A stretch of DNA of 61,513 bases, filler included, from Globobulimina sp. (lineage: Eukaryota): assembly GCA_003354225.1 (NCBI GenBank). It is 23 parts of 23 records of this genome, joined end to end, with 100 filler letters (N's around TTAATTAATTAA, not from the genome) between each part and the next. Parts side by side here need not be neighbours in the genome. Positions count along the whole stretch, not along the records: positions 24,127 to 26,706 come from PIVH01005885.1; 22 more parts are not named here. One strand, written 5' to 3'. The position numbers and the translations under genes are program-made. The notes under the pieces were generated by a model. It did not search any database and had not been told where the DNA came from. It saw only the letters and a program-made list of their open reading frames with translations. Position 1 is the stretch's first letter. Every line of letters starts with the position of its first letter. Below, piece after piece: positions 3,257 through 58,072 of the stretch.

Positions 3257-5262
3257 TCAGTCCTCAGTCAATCGAATCATATTTAAGAATAAGTCATCCT
3301 TTGGTTTATATTCAATCTGTAATGATGGATGCATGCAATATGCATATATCAACCGATTATAATATCGTAATTTATTTAATTTGCGCAATTCTGCTTTATC
3401 CAATCTATTATGTTTATTATCAATTTCGTTCTCTATATTGTCCATATTGTATATCGTATATATTAATAATGCATCAACTGGACTCGTATGGCCATCATGG
3501 TATGGCTTGCAATGCATTATATCGGTCCAAAATGGATCATAAATTTTATCATAATCCTGGATTTTCAATGTTTTATTACCATTTATTGCCTCCAATACCT
3601 TATACGGGCCCACATAATTTGGTATCAATGACTTCTCGTTTTTTGTCATATTTTGCGAGACGTCATACATTATTAAGTCATTCACTTCAGTCTTTATTTC
3701 ATGTCTATGTTTGTCATAATATCTCTTTCGTATTTTGTCATAATTTATTTGTTTATTTCGAGCCTTATTATGTATCATCTTTACGCGAACAGCCATATGT
3801 TTGCGATAAATATCAGGGCATTTCGGATCGCATTTTATTACATCAATATCTCGTGGATTGGTACCAAATATTATGTCGAATGGCGTGTATGATGTCATTC
3901 GATTTATTGTTGTATTATATTTATATTGGATCACTGGTAAGTAATGGGCCCAGTTATCACATTGGAAAGCTGGCCCAACGACGAATTCCAAGCCTAAATC
4001 GTATGCGAGCACCGCTAAGCGCTCTTTTATCCATCTATGGAGCCGCTCGATCTGTCCATTGCATTCCGGATGATATGCAGTTATGTATTTTACTTTTGTT
4101 TTGTGTGAATCTTGATAGTGTCTATATATATTTTTGATAGGAATTGGGAACCGTTATCGGATAGGATCACTTCCGGCGGTCCAAAGGTTGTATACCACCG
4201 CTCAATGGCTCGTATGACGGTCGGTGTATCCGTATCCTTCACTGGCTGTATCATACAATATCGTGAGAACTTGTCAATGATAGTCACGATGTATTGGAAT
4301 CCATCATCTGTCGTTGGCAGTGCACCAACAATATCTACGCTTATTTGTTCAAAGGGGCGTGTTGCTGGAAACAAGTTAAGTTTCCCACGATTCTGTTTTT
4401 GTGTATGTTTGACTGATTGGCAGCTTATGCAGCTTTTGGCAAACTCGCCAATATCGAGTCGCATTTTGGGCCACCAGTACTCCGTCAATATTAAATCAAT
4501 CATTTTGCCGCTACCATTATGAACTATGTCGTGCGCGTTATTTATTATGGATTTGCGCAATGTATCAGGTACCACAATCTTGTATTCATTCTCTTTATAT
4601 TTATAAAATAGTAAGCCATCATCATTGCACTTATATTTGCCGTTTAACACATATCGGTACAAATATTTTGGCAGAGTGCGTATTAAATGGGTATTGTCAG
4701 TCAAAATGTACTGAGCAATGCCATATATCCATGGATCAGACTGTTGTTTTTGGAGTAATAGATCTGGAGTTATATGCTCTGGATAGTATCTATCAAGAAT
4801 TACTGATGGAATTGGATCAATTGTATCAAGATTATGGATGGGATTATTTGGTTTATATGATAGGATATTTTGATTTAATTCCAAGGCTTCATCCAATCGT
4901 TCATTATAAAGTTTACGTTGCGCCGCATTCACAATATCATCAATATGCGGGATCTCAATCAATTCGGAAGCATTTATATCGGCGTCTTGGTTCTCAGGCA
5001 ATCTGTTTCTGATTCGCGTTGACCTTCGACGCGTTTCTGACTGTTTTTGTTGTTTGTTATGTTTTATTTTTGGTTTCGGTATCTGTGGTTTCGTTGTTTT
5101 ATGTTTTTGTTTCTGTTTATTTTTATTTTTGTCGGCGGCAAAAACTCGCCACTCTTGAAGTTTTCGTAACAAATTATCTAGAAAACAACTCTCTTCTTCT
5201 TCTTCCCTCTCCTCTTTATCATGGCGCCGTGGTGTTGGTGGCCTTAAACTGATCGAATCGTC
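3257..5262 (-). pseudogene. pol C-terminus / integrase, frameshifted near 4095
   Basis: AHDIVHNG..YWWPKM..CISCQ, PFEQISVDIVG and ILSDNGSQF lie in one frame. TAYHPECNGQIERLH (catalytic E) and YVGPYKV lie in another; the shift is at cacacaaaacaaaag. Confidence 0.85.
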
Positions 5263-24002: not shown

Positions 24003-24211
24003 ATACAAGCTGTGATTTCATATTATNNNNNNNNNNNNNNNNNNNNNNNNNNNNNNNNNNNNNNNNNNNNTTAATTAATTAANNNNNNNNNNNNNNNNNN
24101 NNNNNNNNNNNNNNNNNNNNNNNNNNAGATAAAAATTGTTTTTTGTAAGATGACAATTTTCAAACAAAACAAAACGAAGTCTCTTTCAGTTGTCAATAGC
24201 AATGAACTCAT

Positions 24212-25627
24212 TTATTTTACAACCAATGCTTGTTTGATTGCCATTTCATGCTCCAAAAACTCGACAAACTTCAGACCAAACATTGAATGTAACCGTTTCC
24301 ATTCAAATTCCGTCAGTTTAACGCTTGAATTTTGAATATATGCTTGTGGCAAAACAGAAGGCATTGTGACAAATTCATCAGTCACTTGCTTAAACAATGA
24401 ATTATATGAATATTTAAAATAAAAACCACTCTCTGGATTTGATTGTAACTTTGTAATTAAATCAAATACATTGTCATCATTGACAATGATTAATATTCTC
24501 TTCGAATCCAATTCATTTACACTTCCATACAAACAATGCATCAAATACGCATTCATAATTTGTCCAAATAAATGTAAATGTGGAAAGAAATACGGTTGAA
24601 TCACATATCTCATTTCTGAGGTTAATTTGCTGTCTGCTCTCAATAACTTTGTTGATATTGTTTGAATTTTCTTTGGTAATATTTTATTTTCTAAAACTGG
24701 CGATATCTCAATAGCAGATAAAGAAAATAAATCACATAAAAACGAATAATTATACAATAATTCATGATATTCCTCACATAAATTAGCAGCAATCACATTT
24801 TTTCCCTCTTTATTTGCTATCGATAGCAATGAGTCCATAACAGAGGGAATCGAAGGTGTCACCGATCCAAACATAAAATTCATAATATTGTCCAAAAAAT
24901 ATGTGCGTTTTTTGTGAAATTGTCGGAAATTATGTGCATTGCATTGCAGGATAATCGAATCTGGATCAAAACAATTGATTACTTTTTGCATTCTATTCCT
25001 TGATTTGAGAGATCGATTATATTTAATGTCTCTATACAGCAACACCTGAAGGTTACGCTCATTATTTATAAAATATGGCATGTTCTTTTTATCCGATCCA
25101 TCTTTTAAATGTGATAATGTTTGCGGCACTTCACTCTGCTTCAAAATAAATGGTAATATTCTTTTTTTGGATTGTTTTGTTTTATTTATATTTTTTAATT
25201 GATTGTTAAAACTTATTGGAGTGAATACGTTGACTCCTAATTCAGTTCTGATTGGTTGTGGAATGTCCCATTGTTTTCGGTGCATTCTGCGATGAATTGT
25301 GCCAAATATGTTCGTTAAATTCTGATATGCGATTTGTGGGTATTGTTGATTGTAATTTTCCGAACCAACCACTAATGCGTGGATAGTTGAGGCGTCATTT
25401 ACAGATTTTTCATCGATTTCATATTGATCATCGATTAGATTTTGTTTTGGCTTGATTTCAGATTTCCAGTCAGTTAAAGTTGCCGTATGATTGAAAGTCT
25501 TATCGCAGAATTTCTTTTGACGCTCTATTCGTTTCCATAGTTTTGGTGGGATTTTCTTTTGTTTTATGTGGGATTGAATGCGAATAATTTTGATACTTGT
25601 TGTCTGGCGAGACAGCGAAGACGCCAT
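24212..25627 (-). CDS. Hypothetical protein
   Basis: Long intact ORF, first ATG at 25627 (MASSLSRQ), basic N-terminus. Confidence 0.7.
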   Translation of the reverse strand: MASSLSRQTTSIKIIRIQSHIKQKKIPPKLWKRIERQKKFCDKTFNHTATLTDWKSEIKPKQNLIDDQYEIDEKSVNDASTIHALVVGSENYNQQYPQIAYQNLTNIFGTIHRRMHRKQWDIPQPIRTELGVNVFTPISFNNQLKNINKTKQSKKRILPFILKQSEVPQTLSHLKDGSDKKNMPYFINNERNLQVLLYRDIKYNRSLKSRNRMQKVINCFDPDSIILQCNAHNFRQFHKKRTYFLDNIMNFMFGSVTPSIPSVMDSLLSIANKEGKNVIAANLCEEYHELLYNYSFLCDLFSLSAIEISPVLENKILPKKIQTISTKLLRADSKLTSEMRYVIQPYFFPHLHLFGQIMNAYLMHCLYGSVNELDSKRILIIVNDDNVFDLITKLQSNPESGFYFKYSYNSLFKQVTDEFVTMPSVLPQAYIQNSSVKLTEFEWKRLHSMFGLKFVEFLEHEMAIKQALVVK

Positions 25628-26585
25628 TTGAAGATAGACTAAAGTTTTCGGTGGAAATATTTCCAGGCTGTGGATCAAAACTAAACTTTTTTTTTGGTGG
25701 AAACACACCAAATTAATATGTGTAAAAATATCACAACTCGAAGCACAATAACAAATTAATTAATATTATCAATCGAATAGTTATACAACAAAACACATTG
25801 CGACAAAATTAAAAAAAAAACTTAAATATTATTAATAAAATATATCAAATTATATAAAAAACAAACATAATATACTGTAAAATAAGCATTGTTAAAGAGC
25901 GAGTAATAACGAAAATTTTAAGTTAGACGAGCGACAAAGCTCAAGCCCTCATTGAAATTCTGTGCACTCCGCAACAAAATATTACACTCAGATACACTGT
26001 AAATTAAAAGAGAATGAATGAATGATAGTTATTATAAAAAAATGTGTTGATGAACAAAATGTCCATGTCCCATTTTAATGGTAAAGCAAAGCACCAAATA
26101 GCATGGGCAGCTCATTTGAGCATAAATATATGATATCAATTTGCTAAATAAACAAATTGTATATATATATCAGTTATGTTTAATATGCTTTACTATCATC
26201 AGATGTTGGAGCGAAAGTGTCGTTAAACCAATGTACCAAAGACAGTTGTGTAGGTTTCTGTGTATTGAAATTATTTTGAATATATAATTTGCTGCATAAT
26301 CATTTCTTAACTAATATAATTTGATGATTTGGACCTTGATCTCGATGCCGTAATTGAAATCCAATAATTTCACTATTTCACCAAAAAAATGTACGCTGCG
26401 ACTCTATGCGGCAATTTATTAATATTTATATGGTTAAAATTATAAACCACAGTTGAGTTGTGAGGAAGGATTAGTTTTGAAGTTTTTGTTTTGAAAGTTT
26501 TTTGAGTGGTTATTAATATATTTTAGTTGAATGTCTAATCTAAATTGTGAATACAAAAAATAAAATAAAATTTAAGAGTAAACGC

Positions 26586-26672
26586 CGCGCAGAAGGTGGA
26601 ATCGAACCACTGTGTTGTTATACACCTACAGATTCGAAGTCTGGACACCAGACCAGTCAGGATCATCCGCGC
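26586..26672 (-). tRNA. tRNA-Sec-type tRNA gene with non-canonical anticodon UCG
   Basis: GCGCGGATG AT CCTGACTGGTCTGGTG TCCAGA CTTCGAA TCTGTA G GTGTATAACAACAC A GTGG TTCGATT CCAC CTTCTGCGC G. 87 nt, 9-bp acceptor stem, 4-bp T stem, long variable arm, G73, downstream T-runs. Anticodon TCG at 26637-26635. Confidence 0.9.
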
Positions 26673-26927
26673 ATATTCATTATTGCTATTTCTTTCTTTG
26701 GCTTAGNNNNNNNNNNNNNNNNNNNNNNNNNNNNNNNNNNNNNNNNNNNNTTAATTAATTAANNNNNNNNNNNNNNNNNNNNNNNNNNNNNNNNNNNNNN
26801 NNNNNNAAAAAAAGATTTAGTGATAAAACCCCTTTACAAAAAGCTCACTCAATCACCGCACTCGAAATCATGTCAGCTCATGTGAACGTTGACTAGTTCA
26901 GAGTCAGATAAATGCCAAAGATTTAAT

Positions 26928-56261: not shown

Positions 56262-57939
56262 TTGAAAGCCAGTCCTTACGGAATTGTGATTTGCTGGCAT
56301 GATTATGAATCATCCATGAATTCTCATATAAATGCAGCAATGATATATGTCTCTGGATAACACCGTTATTCTGATAAAAGAAATGCCGGGTGATGTTTGG
56401 ATTGCTGGTATAAAGTTTTTTGTATGTTTTTTTTATTTGCTCGGATTTTCCATAAATATATATATATTTATTCGGATAAATAAATCCTGATTTAAAAAAG
56501 AGATCCCACAGCTTGTCCGGTTCAACACTGTTGCTGATATGTAGATGATCATCATTCAGTTGATTTAAATAAGACAGCAGCCGGGTGTGGTCTTCAACAG
56601 AAATGTCAAGGATTGCCAGACCGCATTTTACCAAATCTGTTTTTGCCCCTTCGGCATATTCATTTCTATAAATAACCTGGGCTTTGCACTGAATCAGGAT
56701 ACTGCCGAAAAGGTATAGTTCTAATGAAGGGATAAGCATTCCCGGCATAAGAACTGAATTGGTTCTTTGTTCTTCTACTGAAAAACCGGTACAGGACAGA
56801 TCCACCGTTTTAAGACGAATATTTCTGTCAGTTATTGGGTGCCTGAAAACAATATCCGGTGATGGTGTCAACTGGTGCCGGATACTTCTGTTTTTTTCCG
56901 GCTTGAATCTATGAATTTGATGGTTTATTGGTGCAAGAACATAATCCCTGTTATTATGATTGCTGGTTTGTCTTAAAATTCTGCATTCACCTGAAAACAG
57001 TGTCTTCCCACCTTCAAGAAAAATAAGAGTCACCGCCGAAAACGGATTAATCCACTGGAATGACTGGGTGGGGGAGGAGTGAACCGTTAATCGAAACGTA
57101 ACAGCATTGAAATCTTTAATTGTGCCGTGAAAAAGAGCGCTGTTTTGTACAAGCCGAACGTGAATATTTTTACATGAATATCTTCTTATTTTTCGAACAT
57201 TGATGTCATAACATGCCTCAGGAAGTTTTAAGGTAATACCATATTTATTTACGCGTAGCACTTCCGGTTTTGACATAAGTAGATGCTGGCTGTCATGAAC
57301 CAGAATTTTATCGATATTGAATGGTTTTAAAGTGGGATGCAGACCGGATGTTTCGGTCCAGAGGCATTTGAGCTGATAATCGTCGCATAATTGAGGTTTC
57401 ACACGTCGGGTAATCGTGCGGCCATGCTTGATGTGCTTGAACTTTATAAGGATGGTTCCACCCACAAAGTTGATATAATTAAGTTTGTTAATTAAATAGG
57501 TTATATTAAATTCTGTGTACTGTGTATTTTTGTCTTCACTGGTATGAGCTTGAATTGACTGCTGTGAAGACTTTTTATGCGCAGTTTTATCTGCCTCACT
57601 GGTAGCCGCAGCACTATCAGATTTTTTAAAATGAATTGAATGAATTTTTCCGGATTTTTTTTCATTTTCCCGAAGGCTGCTTTCTGAATTTATGGCAATT
57701 GATTGAGAGGAATTATCATTTTTGCAATCATTACCCTCATCATGGCGGGTGGGCGGTTTATTATTAAGATTTCTCAACAGGGTCGTCATCTGCTTTTTCT
57801 GTACATTAATTTCTGTGGATGTAGTTGATAGTTGGCCGGAATTTTGAACCCTCCAGGAGATGTCTTCTTCTTTTTCTTCATTATCAATTAATCGCTTAAG
57901 ATAATCCATTATGGGACCTCTTTTTGACGCAACCGACAT
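56262..57939 (-). CDS. Bacterial tandem PilZ-domain protein, 3'-truncated
   Basis: RKIRRY..DFNAVTF and RSIRH..VDLSCTGF (RxxxR / DxSxxG-like), then LWDLFFKSGFIYPNKY. Intronless, higher GC, bacterial-like codons. Resembles a Desulfobacterota family (from memory). Confidence 0.8.
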
Positions 57940-58072
57940 CCGACCTGAAAAAAATTGTTTACGCCTGAGTGTAAATCAACAAAAAAACATGTCAGCTATT
58001 CATTATATTAAGTATGACTTTAAGTTTACATTATTTATTCGTTTATTTTTCTATTGTCAATGAGAAAGAATG

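What the first reader, a model, noticed from the sequence alone, without database searches (positions are those of the whole stretch)
26586..26672. tRNA-Sec scaffold carrying a UCG (Arg, reads CGA) anticodon
Seen: an 87-nt gene with a 9-bp acceptor stem, 4-bp T stem, long variable arm and G73, with anticodon loop CUUCGAA rather than CUUCAAA. Established: the 9/4 fold, long variable arm and G73 are the eukaryotic tRNA-Sec determinants used by SerRS, PSTK, SepSecS and eEFSec; non-UCA tRNA-Sec variants are known in some bacteria, and I know of no eukaryotic case. It aligns without gaps to vertebrate tRNA-Sec as I recall it (about 80%), with compensatory pair changes in the acceptor, anticodon and variable stems. 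Inference: it could direct SECIS-dependent Sec (or Ser) insertion at CGA sense codons, or be a regulatory or decoy tRNA. Against function: the D stem pairs poorly in the canonical register (better as CCUGA/UCUGG), and the anticodon stem has a C-U mismatch, so a decaying paralogue or tRNA-derived repeat is a real alternative.
Basis: partly seen in the sequence, partly recalled or inferred. Interest (0 to 1): 0.92.

Follow-up and report, generated by a model that had tools for sequence, protein, structure and literature searches.

The report
Degenerate selenocysteine tRNA copy, UCG anticodon
A selenocysteine-type tRNA gene with an arginine-reading anticodon is really there, but its broken stems and the everyday use of that arginine codon suggest it is most likely a decaying gene copy, not a new way of encoding selenocysteine.

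Summary
On the minus strand at 26586-26672 lies an 87-nt gene that Rfam's tRNA-Sec model matches above its gathering score (54.8 bits against 47). It has the 9/4 acceptor/T architecture, a long variable arm, G73 and the anticodon loop CUUCGAA (UCG).

The functional reading is not supported:
- Against 48 distinct eukaryote-type UCA tRNA-Sec sequences from metagenomes, it alone breaks pairs 15:24, 17:22 and 29:45.
- It forms 24 of 29 cloverleaf pairs, against 26-28 in the others. Its cloverleaf is 15.8 kcal/mol above its minimum free energy, against 0-6.5.
- It scores 14-25 bits below 19 full-length UCA genes.
- The 6-bp D stem, the PSTK determinant, keeps only 3 pairs.
- CGA is the second commonest Arg codon here (120 of 567) and sits at invariant Arg positions.

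The most likely reading is a degenerate tRNA-Sec copy: a paralogous pseudogene or a relic after loss of Sec (confidence about 0.6).

Three things could not be tested. No genome is held. The window is a chain of separate ~2.58-kb contigs, and the gene lies 34 nt from a contig end. The read-laying output listed nothing at base 26635. So a UCA sister gene, the Sec machinery and expression remain open.

The parts
26586..26672 (-). 87-nt tRNA-Sec-type gene (9/4 fold, long variable arm, G73 at 26586)
   Evidence: Rfam RF01852 54.8 bits, E 2.4e-08, full model; sequence read; gap-free alignment with 48 UCA tRNA-Sec sequences
26635..26637 (-). Anticodon UCG (U at 26637, C at 26636, G at 26635); G replaces the A found in every other sequence
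   Evidence: column 38 is A in 48 of 48 other sequences; 117 A, 2 T and 0 G among 119 pattern matches
26646..26661 (-). D arm (linear positions 12-27): only 3 of 6 canonical stem pairs (C.U at 13:26, G.G at 15:24, C.C at 17:22); loop UGGU retains the invariant GG
   Evidence: mismatch list; pairs 15:24 and 17:22 unpaired in 1 of 49 sequences, the window gene; 13:26 unpaired in 6 of 49
26627..26645 (-). Anticodon arm (positions 28-46): 5 of 6 stem pairs; C29.U45 mismatch unique to this gene; loop CUUCGAA
   Evidence: C29 never seen in 48; 29:45 unpaired in 1 of 49
26611..26626 (-). Variable arm (positions 47-62): 4-bp stem GUGU/ACAC, 6-nt loop, flanked by invariant G47 and A62
   Evidence: helix 4, 99.5% of cells paired, all 4 pairs covary
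24127..26706 (.). The 2580-nt contig piece that holds the gene; spacers of N and TTAATTAATTAA on both sides
25712..26551 (.). Non-coding stretch immediately 3' of the tRNA gene, with very high summed contig depth in three runs (a repeat family or highly abundant sequence)
   Evidence: table 2 (up to 534078 in X1, against 20 over the neighbouring ORF); no ATG-started ORF of 30 aa or more lies wholly inside it; no second copy in the window
24215..25759 (-). 515-aa open frame downstream on the same strand, no Pfam family; single-copy depth in the runs

Best explanation
It is a degenerate, probably non-functional copy of the organism's selenocysteine tRNA gene. It is either a paralogous pseudogene beside an intact UCA gene elsewhere in the genome, or the relic of the only tRNA-Sec gene in a lineage that has given up selenocysteine. 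It descends from a normal eukaryotic 9/4 tRNA-Sec, and it keeps every loop residue that is invariant in the family. Since then it has taken about four or five substitutions that a working tRNA-Sec does not tolerate. Three of them open stem pairs that are closed in every other sequence examined. One is an A-to-G transition that turns anticodon UCA into UCG. As a result the cloverleaf is no longer the favoured fold, and the long D stem that PSTK needs is lost. Shown: the sequence, its family resemblance, its outlier status, and the ordinary Arg meaning of CGA. Inferred: loss of function and the order of events.
For: (1) Structural outlier. Among 49 distinct 87-nt eukaryote-type UCA sequences from metagenome contigs, 48 form 26-28 of 29 template pairs, with the cloverleaf 0-6.5 kcal/mol above the minimum free energy. 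The window gene forms 24 of 29 with a gap of 15.8 (cloverleaf -14.7, MFE -30.5). Only L068, a copy lacking its 5' half, is worse.
(2) In the 49-sequence alignment, pairs 15:24, 17:22 and 29:45 each have exactly one unpaired cell, the window gene. All 6 D-stem pairs covary in the family, with 97.3% of cells paired. The alternative D register that fits the window gene is paired in only 54.7% of family cells.
(3) C29 and G38 are seen in 0 of 48 other sequences.
(4) The Rfam score is 54.8, against 68.7-79.4 for 19 full-length UCA genes in the 20 loci scanned (the 20th, L043, is cut by its contig end). ARAGORN calls tRNA-SeC in 12 of 12 such loci but nothing in the window.
(5) The predicted fold is not a cloverleaf: a hairpin GGUCUGG/CCAGACU, plus the anticodon loop paired with the T arm.
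(6) CGA is an ordinary Arg codon: 120 of 567 Arg codons in 27 ORFs. In the VTC protein, 4 of 9 CGA codons lie at columns with 13 of 13 Arg.
(7) Priors from the Secmarker paper (PMC5330540, passages read). The anticodon triplet was 100% conserved in 553 eukaryotic top candidates. Of 252 extra G73 copies, 145 carried structure-disrupting mutations.
(8) Broken or degenerate tRNA-Sec copies turned up even in a scan that demanded intact anticodon and T arms: L068/L094 lack the 5' half, and L111 is a 90-nt copy with a disturbed acceptor.
(9) PSTK recognition depends on the 6-bp D stem and 4-nt loop (review PMC7609411, passages read).
Against: No UCA sister gene, Sec machinery or selenoprotein gene could be looked for, because no genome is held. 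'Paralogue' versus 'relic' is therefore open, and loss of function is inferred, not shown.
- The gene keeps all family-invariant residues outside the anticodon: G1, G9, A10, G19, G20, U35, G47, A62, G63, U68, C74, C77, C78 and G87.
- Most of its differences from its nearest relatives (L015 and L033, 76 of 87 identical) preserve pairing. This is what a gene under selection shows, though it may date from before the copy died.
- Two of the odd bases (G15, C22) pair with each other in an alternative D register. C22 and C29 complete a 7-bp alternative hairpin.
- In a simulation of random pair-breaking changes from a hypothetical parent, an MFE as low as observed arose in only 2.9-4.5% of 3000 draws. 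This is a weak hint that the alternative fold is not accidental.
- ARAGORN's silence may owe something to the non-UCA anticodon alone.
- The comparison set was chosen by a pattern that required intact anticodon and T arms, so it is biased towards well-formed genes.
Confidence: 0.62

Rival explanations
1. A tRNA-Sec-derived RNA that has taken on a non-decoding role (regulatory, decoy or processed small RNA), or that is part of a moderately repeated unit, and that folds in the alternative, non-cloverleaf shape.
For: The minimum-free-energy fold (-30.5 kcal/mol, z = -2.26, 3 of 200 shuffles as good) is a non-cloverleaf. Three of the four unusual bases (C22, C29, G38) close pairs in it. Random pair-breaking changes reach that stability in only 2.9-4.5% of 3000 draws. 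In run X2 the summed contig depth over the tRNA bins is 104 and 55, against about 6.7 over the neighbouring single-copy ORF. One X2 contig joins 26509 to 26562 with 7 other letters, so a second version of the flank exists. The gene abuts a stretch of very high depth.
Against: The test was made after seeing the fold, and p of about 0.03-0.045 is weak. Summed depth is no copy number, as the tool itself warns, and in X1 the tRNA bins are below single-copy depth (13 and 7.9 against 20). There is no second copy in the 59 kb of contigs in the window. No relative with the same changes was found.
Confidence: 0.15
2. A working tRNA-Sec-type tRNA with anticodon UCG. It is serylated by SerRS through its long variable arm and G73, and delivers Sec (through PSTK, SepSecS, eEFSec and SECIS) or Ser to selected CGA codons.
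For: It matches the Rfam tRNA-Sec model above the gathering score. It has the 9/4 fold, G73, the variable arm, the B-box-like T arm and all invariant loop residues. Pairing-preserving differences from relatives occur in the acceptor, anticodon and variable stems. Bacterial tRNA-Sec with sense or other stop anticodons, and matching selenoprotein codons, are on record (Secmarker paper, section on anticodon CUA; review PMC7609411). A run of four T begins about 15 nt after G73.
Against: The D stem keeps 3 of 6 pairs, and the anticodon stem has a mismatch found in 0 of 48 others; the D stem is the PSTK determinant. CGA is frequent (9.5 per 1000 codons) and means Arg at invariant positions. With a 3'-UTR SECIS, every CGA of a selenoprotein mRNA would therefore be exposed, in competition with Arg-tRNA (inference). 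No eukaryotic case turned up in the four literature searches. The window holds no SECIS or selenoprotein family.
Confidence: 0.08
3. Assembly or sequencing artefact: the real gene is a normal UCA tRNA-Sec, and the contig carries errors or is a collapsed mixture of copies.
For: The assembly is highly fragmented (2.58-kb contigs). The matching X2 contigs have low depth, about 3-7. The gene is 34 nt from a contig end. Base 26635 was not confirmed.
Against: Four separate unusual bases within 87 nt would need four errors. Other X2 contigs match the window with 0 differences over 990, 140 and 138 nt (table 8). No difference was listed in the tRNA bins for X1 or X2, though 101 rows were hidden.
Confidence: 0.07

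Closest known systems
Eukaryotic tRNA-Sec (anticodon UCA; Rfam RF01852)
   Same: 87 nt, aligned without gaps to 48 metagenomic eukaryote-type sequences. Shares the 9-bp acceptor with the family-wide U8.U79 non-pair, the 4-bp T stem, the 4-bp variable stem between invariant G47 and A62, the GG in a 4-nt D loop, U33, and G73. Nearest sequences are 76 of 87 identical.
   Different: Anticodon UCG instead of UCA. D stem 3 of 6 pairs. C.U in the anticodon stem. The cloverleaf is not the favoured fold. 14-25 bits lower Rfam score.
tRNA-Sec pseudogenes and extra copies described for animals (human second copy; 252 extra G73 copies in the Secmarker survey, PMC5330540, passages read)
   Same: A recognisable tRNA-Sec with G73 that carries structure-disrupting substitutions. 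The survey judged 145 of 252 extra copies to be of this kind.
   Different: Here the parent UCA gene has not been seen, and the anticodon itself is changed. The organism is a protist of unresolved lineage.
Bacterial tRNA-Sec with non-UCA anticodons (Mukai et al. 2016, as cited in PMC5330540 and PMC7609411; the original was not read)
   Same: A Sec-type scaffold with an anticodon other than UCA.
   Different: Those are bacterial 8/5 tRNAs with intact stems, and they have selenoprotein genes carrying the matching codon beside a SECIS. None of this could be shown here, and the stems are not intact.
Bacterial allo-tRNAs and their degenerate relatives (PMC7609411, passages read)
   Same: Sec-like long-armed tRNAs carrying sense anticodons, Arg among them. 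Some copies have stem-destabilising mutations and are thought not to be used in translation.
   Different: Allo-tRNAs have 8/4 or 9/3 folds with a 12-bp acceptor domain and are bacterial. This gene is a 9/4 eukaryote-type tRNA-Sec derivative.

Membership tests
Eukaryotic tRNA-Sec (RF01852) | Match to the covariance model at or above the gathering score | tested here: met
   54.8 bits against 47, full-length; but 19 full-length UCA genes score 68.7-79.4
Eukaryotic tRNA-Sec (RF01852) | 9-bp acceptor and 4-bp T stem (9/4), discriminator G73 | tested here: met
   8 standard pairs plus the family-wide U8.U79; T stem 4 of 4; G87 (= G73)
Eukaryotic tRNA-Sec (RF01852) | Long variable arm (SerRS determinant) | tested here: met
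   4 of 4 core pairs 48-51/58-61, between invariant G47 and A62
Eukaryotic tRNA-Sec (RF01852) | 6-bp D stem with 4-nt loop (PSTK determinant; PMC7609411) | tested here: not met
   3 of 6 pairs; 15:24 and 17:22 are open only in this gene among 49. The loop UGGU is kept.
Eukaryotic tRNA-Sec (RF01852) | Anticodon UCA | tested here: not met
   UCG; A in 48 of 48 others; triplet 100% conserved in 553 eukaryotic genes (PMC5330540)
Eukaryotic tRNA-Sec (RF01852) | 6-bp anticodon stem | tested here: inconclusive
   5 of 6 pairs; the C29.U45 non-pair is unique among 49
Eukaryotic tRNA-Sec (RF01852) | Residues reported as 100% conserved: G18, G19, U33, U55, C61, C66 (PMC5330540) | tested here: met
   By my mapping to linear numbering these are G19, G20, U35, U68, C74 and C78. 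All are present and invariant in alignment A1.
Eukaryotic tRNA-Sec (RF01852) | Genome encodes PSTK, SepSecS, eEFSec, SBP2 and selenoprotein genes with SECIS | not testable with these tools
   No genome is held. There is no SECIS or selenoprotein family in the window's 23 contigs, which is far too small a sample.
Eukaryotic tRNA-Sec (RF01852) | Transcribed, CCA-tailed, serylated | not testable with these tools
   No RNA holder was listed; the laid runs are contigs only.
Natural non-UCA tRNA-Sec recoding system | Selenoprotein genes with the matching codon (here CGA) at the Sec site, plus SECIS | not testable with these tools
   No genome is held. CGA is an ordinary Arg codon in the ORFs available.
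tRNA-derived repeat (SINE-like) | Many dispersed copies with a tRNA-like head joined to a common body | tested here: inconclusive
   No second copy in the window. The X1 tRNA bins are at or below single-copy depth while the adjoining 25712-26551 is enormously deep. The X2 tRNA bins are about 8-15 times single-copy depth.

The most novel reading that the evidence does not exclude
This is the first eukaryotic selenocysteine-type tRNA retargeted to a sense codon. It would be a transcribed 9/4 tRNA with anticodon UCG and a remodelled D arm (5-bp CCUGA/UCUGG stem). SerRS would charge it, and it would place Sec, or Ser if PSTK no longer accepts it, at particular CGA codons in competition with Arg-tRNA.
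Probability: 0.07. Interest if true: 0.9.

Novelty: new member of a known kind. Interest (0 to 1): 0.3.

Why it matters
If the gene were functional, it would be the first sense-codon selenocysteine tRNA in a eukaryote, and a natural test of whether a 3'-UTR SECIS can redirect a common Arg codon. On the evidence here it is more likely an ordinary by-product of tRNA-Sec gene duplication, or of the loss of selenocysteine. Its main value is then as a marker: finding or failing to find an intact UCA gene and the Sec machinery in this genome would say whether this protist lineage still uses selenocysteine. It also shows that a hit above Rfam's gathering score with every loop residue intact can still be a structural outlier once it is compared with real family members.

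Tried and rejected
- Whole-genome search for other tRNA-Sec genes: not possible, no genome is held.
- Run search: no RNA holder listed, so nothing can be said about expression.
  - The runs are Logan contigs only.
  - X6 and X7 give no cover over the tRNA bins.
  - X1 and X2 give cover there, but no row for 26552-26706 was among those shown (101 difference rows hidden). Base 26635 is therefore neither confirmed nor contradicted.
- Taxonomy:
  - The protein atlas on the GCP protein gave only generic eukaryote clusters.
  - Homologue searches with the VTC protein and a divergent tubulin gave best hits of 48% and 52% identity to unnamed EukProt entries.
  - The 'foraminiferan' label stays untested.
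  - Papers on Reticulomyxa plus selenocysteine, and on Rhizaria plus selenoprotein (listings only), gave nothing that bears on this.
- Literature precedent for a eukaryotic UCG tRNA-Sec: none in the searches. PMC7678280 (passages) speaks of an 'anticodon switch' of plant tRNA-Sec, but it concerns tRNAscan calls averaging 73 nt, not 9/4 tRNA-Sec, so I set it aside. Supplementary files were not consulted.
A G-only rescan of metagenomes was not available under the cap.
- The G-only pattern in prokaryotic genomes: 0.
- Viral scan: I wrote B where V was meant. It returned one phage tRNA with anticodon UCC, which is irrelevant.
- SINE-head idea: not supported by X1 depth, left open by X2 depth.
- Inverted or direct repeats around the gene: nothing convincing.
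- Promoter: only 34 nt upstream are available, with no clear TATA box. The T run downstream is uninformative at 31% G+C.

Full report
WHAT IS THERE. The feature is real and lies on the minus strand. The RNA-sense sequence runs from window 26672 to 26586 and is 87 nt long. Rfam's tRNA-Sec model (RF01852) matches 26587-26672(-) over its full length at 54.8 bits, against a gathering score of 47, with E = 2.4e-08. It remains the only Rfam match in the window at E <= 5. ARAGORN reports no tRNA at all in the window. In linear numbering (position p = 26672-(p-1)) the gene has:
- a 9-position acceptor helix 1-9/78-86 with one U.U;
- the linker AU;
- a D arm at 12-27 with loop UGGU;
- a 6-position anticodon stem 28-33/41-46;
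- the loop CUUCGAA with anticodon U36 C37 G38 (window 26637-26635);
- a variable arm at 47-62;
- a 4-bp T stem 63-66/74-77 with loop UUCGAUU;
- the discriminator G.

CONTEXT. The window is not one locus. Forty-four runs of exactly 44 N, in pairs around TTAATTAATTAA, cut it into 23 pieces. Their lengths fall from 2581 to 2576 nt, which is the signature of length-sorted contigs from a fragmented assembly. The gene sits in piece 24127-26706, 34 nt from the piece's end, so the upstream promoter region is not available. The other pieces say nothing about its neighbourhood. On the same strand, downstream of the gene, lie about 840 nt of non-coding DNA (25712-26551) and then a 515-aa open frame without a Pfam family. 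The contigs are eukaryotic, with about 28-40% G+C and long open frames. Pfam families found include gamma-tubulin complex protein, VTC, tubulin, protein kinase, F-box, exostosin and a retroviral-type integrase. The lineage could not be placed: the best relatives of two proteins are unnamed EukProt entries at 48% and 52% identity. No whole genome is held.

A COMPARISON SET FROM A TOOL. I scanned the metagenome contigs for the anticodon arm plus the T arm, leaving anticodon position 36 free. Position 36 was A in 117, T in 2 and G in 0. Ninety-three matches have eukaryote-type spacing (20-23 nt), and all 93 have A. Twenty-four with A have bacterial-type spacing (25-28 nt). The two with T are not tRNA-Sec-like.

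After dropping three matches cut by contig ends (one copy in L012, L043 and L114), the eukaryote-type matches gave 51 distinct sequences, 49 of them exactly 87 nt. I also set aside L068, which lacks the 5' half. That left 48 distinct UCA genes, which align with the window gene without a single gap (alignment A1). The nearest, L015 and L033, are 76 of 87 identical; the range over the 48 is 51-76.

The set is biased. The pattern demanded intact anticodon and T arms, and it fixed or restricted positions 30-44 and 65-75.

WHAT THE COMPARISON SHOWS. Some features are in the gene's favour:
- It keeps every residue that is invariant in the set and was not fixed by the pattern: G1, G9, A10, G19, G20, G47, A62, G63, C77, C78 and G87.
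- It keeps the positions the Secmarker paper reports as 100% conserved in 553 eukaryotic genes: G18, G19, U33, U55, C61 and C66 (PMC5330540, passages; the mapping to linear numbers is mine).
- The U8.U79 non-pair is a family trait, unpaired in 49 of 49.
- Its differences from relatives in the acceptor (3:84), anticodon stem (33:41) and variable stem (49:60, 51:58) all keep pairing.

Other features count against it:
- The canonical cloverleaf is very well supported by covariation in the family: 95.4% of cells are paired, no shuffle in 500 reaches any measure, and all six D-stem pairs covary.
- Within it, pairs 15:24, 17:22 and 29:45 each have exactly one unpaired cell among 49 sequences. That cell is the window gene (G.G, C.C and C.U).
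- A fourth non-pair, 13:26, it shares with five others.
- C29 and G38 occur in none of the 48.
- It forms 24 of 29 template pairs, against 26-28 in the 48.
- Its cloverleaf (-14.7 kcal/mol) lies 15.8 above its minimum free energy (-30.5). For the 48, the gap is 0-6.5.
- Its predicted fold is not a cloverleaf. The 3' strand of the D arm pairs with the 5' strand of the anticodon stem (GGUCUGG/CCAGACU), and the anticodon loop, G36 included, pairs with the T arm.
- Rfam scores of 19 full-length UCA genes from 20 loci are 68.7-79.4 bits. The 20th, L043, is cut by its contig end and scores 57.1. The window gene is 14-25 bits lower.
- ARAGORN calls tRNA-SeC in 12 of 12 loci tested, though its silence on the window may partly reflect the anticodon.
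But that register is paired in only 54.7% of family cells, so it is not an ancestral feature.

DOES THE CODON MAKE SENSE? In 27 non-overlapping open frames of at least 240 aa (12,622 codons), CGA occurs 120 times. That is 9.5 per 1000 codons and 120 of 567 Arg codons, second only to AGA. In the VTC protein aligned with 13 homologues, 4 of its 9 CGA codons fall on columns with 13 of 13 Arg, and a fifth on a column with 9 of 13. CGA is therefore an ordinary, frequent Arg codon, and genome-wide reassignment is excluded. A SECIS-dependent use would face two problems: it must compete with Arg-tRNA, and with the eukaryotic SECIS in the 3' UTR it would expose every CGA in the message. This last point is inference from the known mechanism, as summarised in PMC7609411. 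The same review states that PSTK distinguishes tRNA-Sec by its 6-bp D stem and 4-nt loop. That is the element this gene has lost.

READS. X2 matches the window exactly over three listed pieces and may be its source. X1 differs by 22 letters over 1554, and X6 by 36 over 950. X1 and X2 give depth in the two bins that hold the gene, while X6 and X7 give none. No difference within 26552-26706 was among the rows shown, but 101 rows were hidden, so base 26635 is neither confirmed nor contradicted. In X2 the summed depth in the tRNA bins (104 and 55) is well above that of the single-copy ORF (about 6.7). One X2 contig replaces 26510-26561 with 7 letters. This may mean further copies, or merely other contigs that align in part, and the tool warns that summed depth is no copy number. 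In X1 the same bins are at or below single-copy depth.

INTERPRETATION. The simplest account is a tRNA-Sec gene that has stopped being maintained. Four or five substitutions have hit constrained positions, including an A-to-G transition in the anticodon. A-to-G is among the commonest changes seen between the strains. They sit on a background that still carries the marks of its functional ancestry. This fits the published picture: the anticodon of eukaryotic tRNA-Sec is invariant, and many extra G73 copies carry structure-breaking mutations (145 of 252 in PMC5330540). Degenerate copies also appeared in my own scan (L068/L094 and L111). Whether it is a paralogue beside a working UCA gene, or the last remnant in a lineage that has lost selenocysteine, cannot be told without the genome. 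I give this reading about 0.62.

WHAT KEEPS THE OTHER READINGS ALIVE. Three of the four odd bases (C22, C29, G38) each complete a helix of the alternative fold, and G15 and C22 pair in the alternative D register. I simulated random pair-breaking substitutions from a hypothetical parent, the window gene with those four positions set as in its nearest relatives. An MFE of -30.5 or lower arose in 4.5% of 3000 draws with G38 fixed, and in 2.9% of 3000 without. A cloverleaf gap of 15.8 or more arose in 4.9% and 12.5%. That is a weak, post-hoc hint of a selected alternative structure, and I give a non-decoding or repeat-associated role about 0.15. A working UCG decoder (Sec or Ser at CGA) gets about 0.08. 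An assembly artefact gets about 0.07, because four independent errors in 87 nt are unlikely where neighbouring contigs agree exactly.

COMPARISON WITH WHAT IS KNOWN. By descent the gene belongs with eukaryotic tRNA-Sec, but it fails two defining features that were tested: the UCA anticodon and the 6-bp D stem. I therefore file it as a tRNA-Sec-derived, probably dead copy, not as a functional member. The bacterial non-UCA tRNA-Sec and the allo-tRNAs, known to me here only through passages of PMC5330540 and PMC7609411, show that Sec-like scaffolds with sense anticodons exist. But they have intact stems and, for tRNA-Sec, matching selenoprotein codons. Four literature searches gave no eukaryotic 9/4 tRNA-Sec with a sense anticodon. 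The one paper that speaks of an anticodon switch (PMC7678280) concerns short plant tRNA calls, not this fold. The UCG form of the search pattern occurs in none of 185,579 prokaryotic species genomes.

VERDICT. Interest is 0.3. The novelty class is a new member of a known kind (a degenerate tRNA-Sec copy). There is a 7% chance of something remarkable, which one genome-wide tRNA-Sec and Sec-machinery search plus a tRNA-seq experiment would settle.

Noticed in passing
window 1-61513 (spacers at e.g. 26707-26806): The window is a chain of 23 separate contigs of 2581-2576 nt, in falling order of length, joined by N44-TTAATTAATTAA-N44 spacers. Open frames or 'neighbours' that cross a spacer are artefacts, and findings elsewhere in this window should be read contig by contig.
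   Followed up: yes
window 25712-26551: The non-coding stretch just 3' of the tRNA gene has enormous summed contig depth in runs X1, X6 and X7 (up to about 5e5, 5e4 and 7e4, against 20, 6 and 7 over the adjacent ORF), with hundreds of variant contigs. In X2 it is only 18-130. It is either a very abundant repeat family or a very abundant transcript. There is no second copy in the window, no ATG-started ORF of 30 aa or more within it, and there are no clear terminal repeats.
   Followed up: partly
L033:313-484 and L015:521-694: In the metagenomic contigs with the tRNA-Sec genes most like the window's, the UCA tRNA-Sec lies 12-13 nt downstream of a tRNA-Arg(CCG) on the same strand. L015 also has a U2 snRNA about 130 nt further on. 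This is a compact small-RNA gene cluster of an unidentified marine or freshwater eukaryote.
   Followed up: no
L068:6847-6933 (same sequence in L094); L111:2023-2112: Degenerate tRNA-Sec copies in metagenome contigs. L068/L094 keep the anticodon arm, variable arm, T arm and 3' acceptor strand, but unrelated sequence stands where the 5' half should be. L111 is a 90-nt copy with an insertion in the variable arm and a disturbed acceptor. Both still have UCA.
   Followed up: partly
L012:168-254 and the contig end near L012:5169-5238: Two tRNA-Sec (UCA) genes about 5 kb apart on one 5.2-kb metagenome contig. They differ in the variable stem, and one has a G.A non-pair. This is an example of tRNA-Sec duplication with divergence.
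   Followed up: no
L119:184-265: A viral (IMG/VR) contig carries an 82-nt tRNA with a long variable arm and anticodon UCC, which ARAGORN calls tRNA-Gly. A long-armed tRNA with a Gly anticodon is unusual and may be an allo-tRNA-like phage tRNA.
   Followed up: no
window 4093-5262 (-): An open frame with integrase zinc-binding and rve core domains, a retrotransposon or retrovirus-like integrase fragment, on a separate contig of the same assembly.
   Followed up: no
window 56263-57975 (-): A 571-aa eukaryotic open frame with a marginal PilZ-domain match (E 9.2e-05, 23.2 bits against a cutoff of 22.5). PilZ is a bacterial c-di-GMP-binding domain and would be unusual in a eukaryote, if the match is real and the contig is not bacterial contamination.
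   Followed up: no
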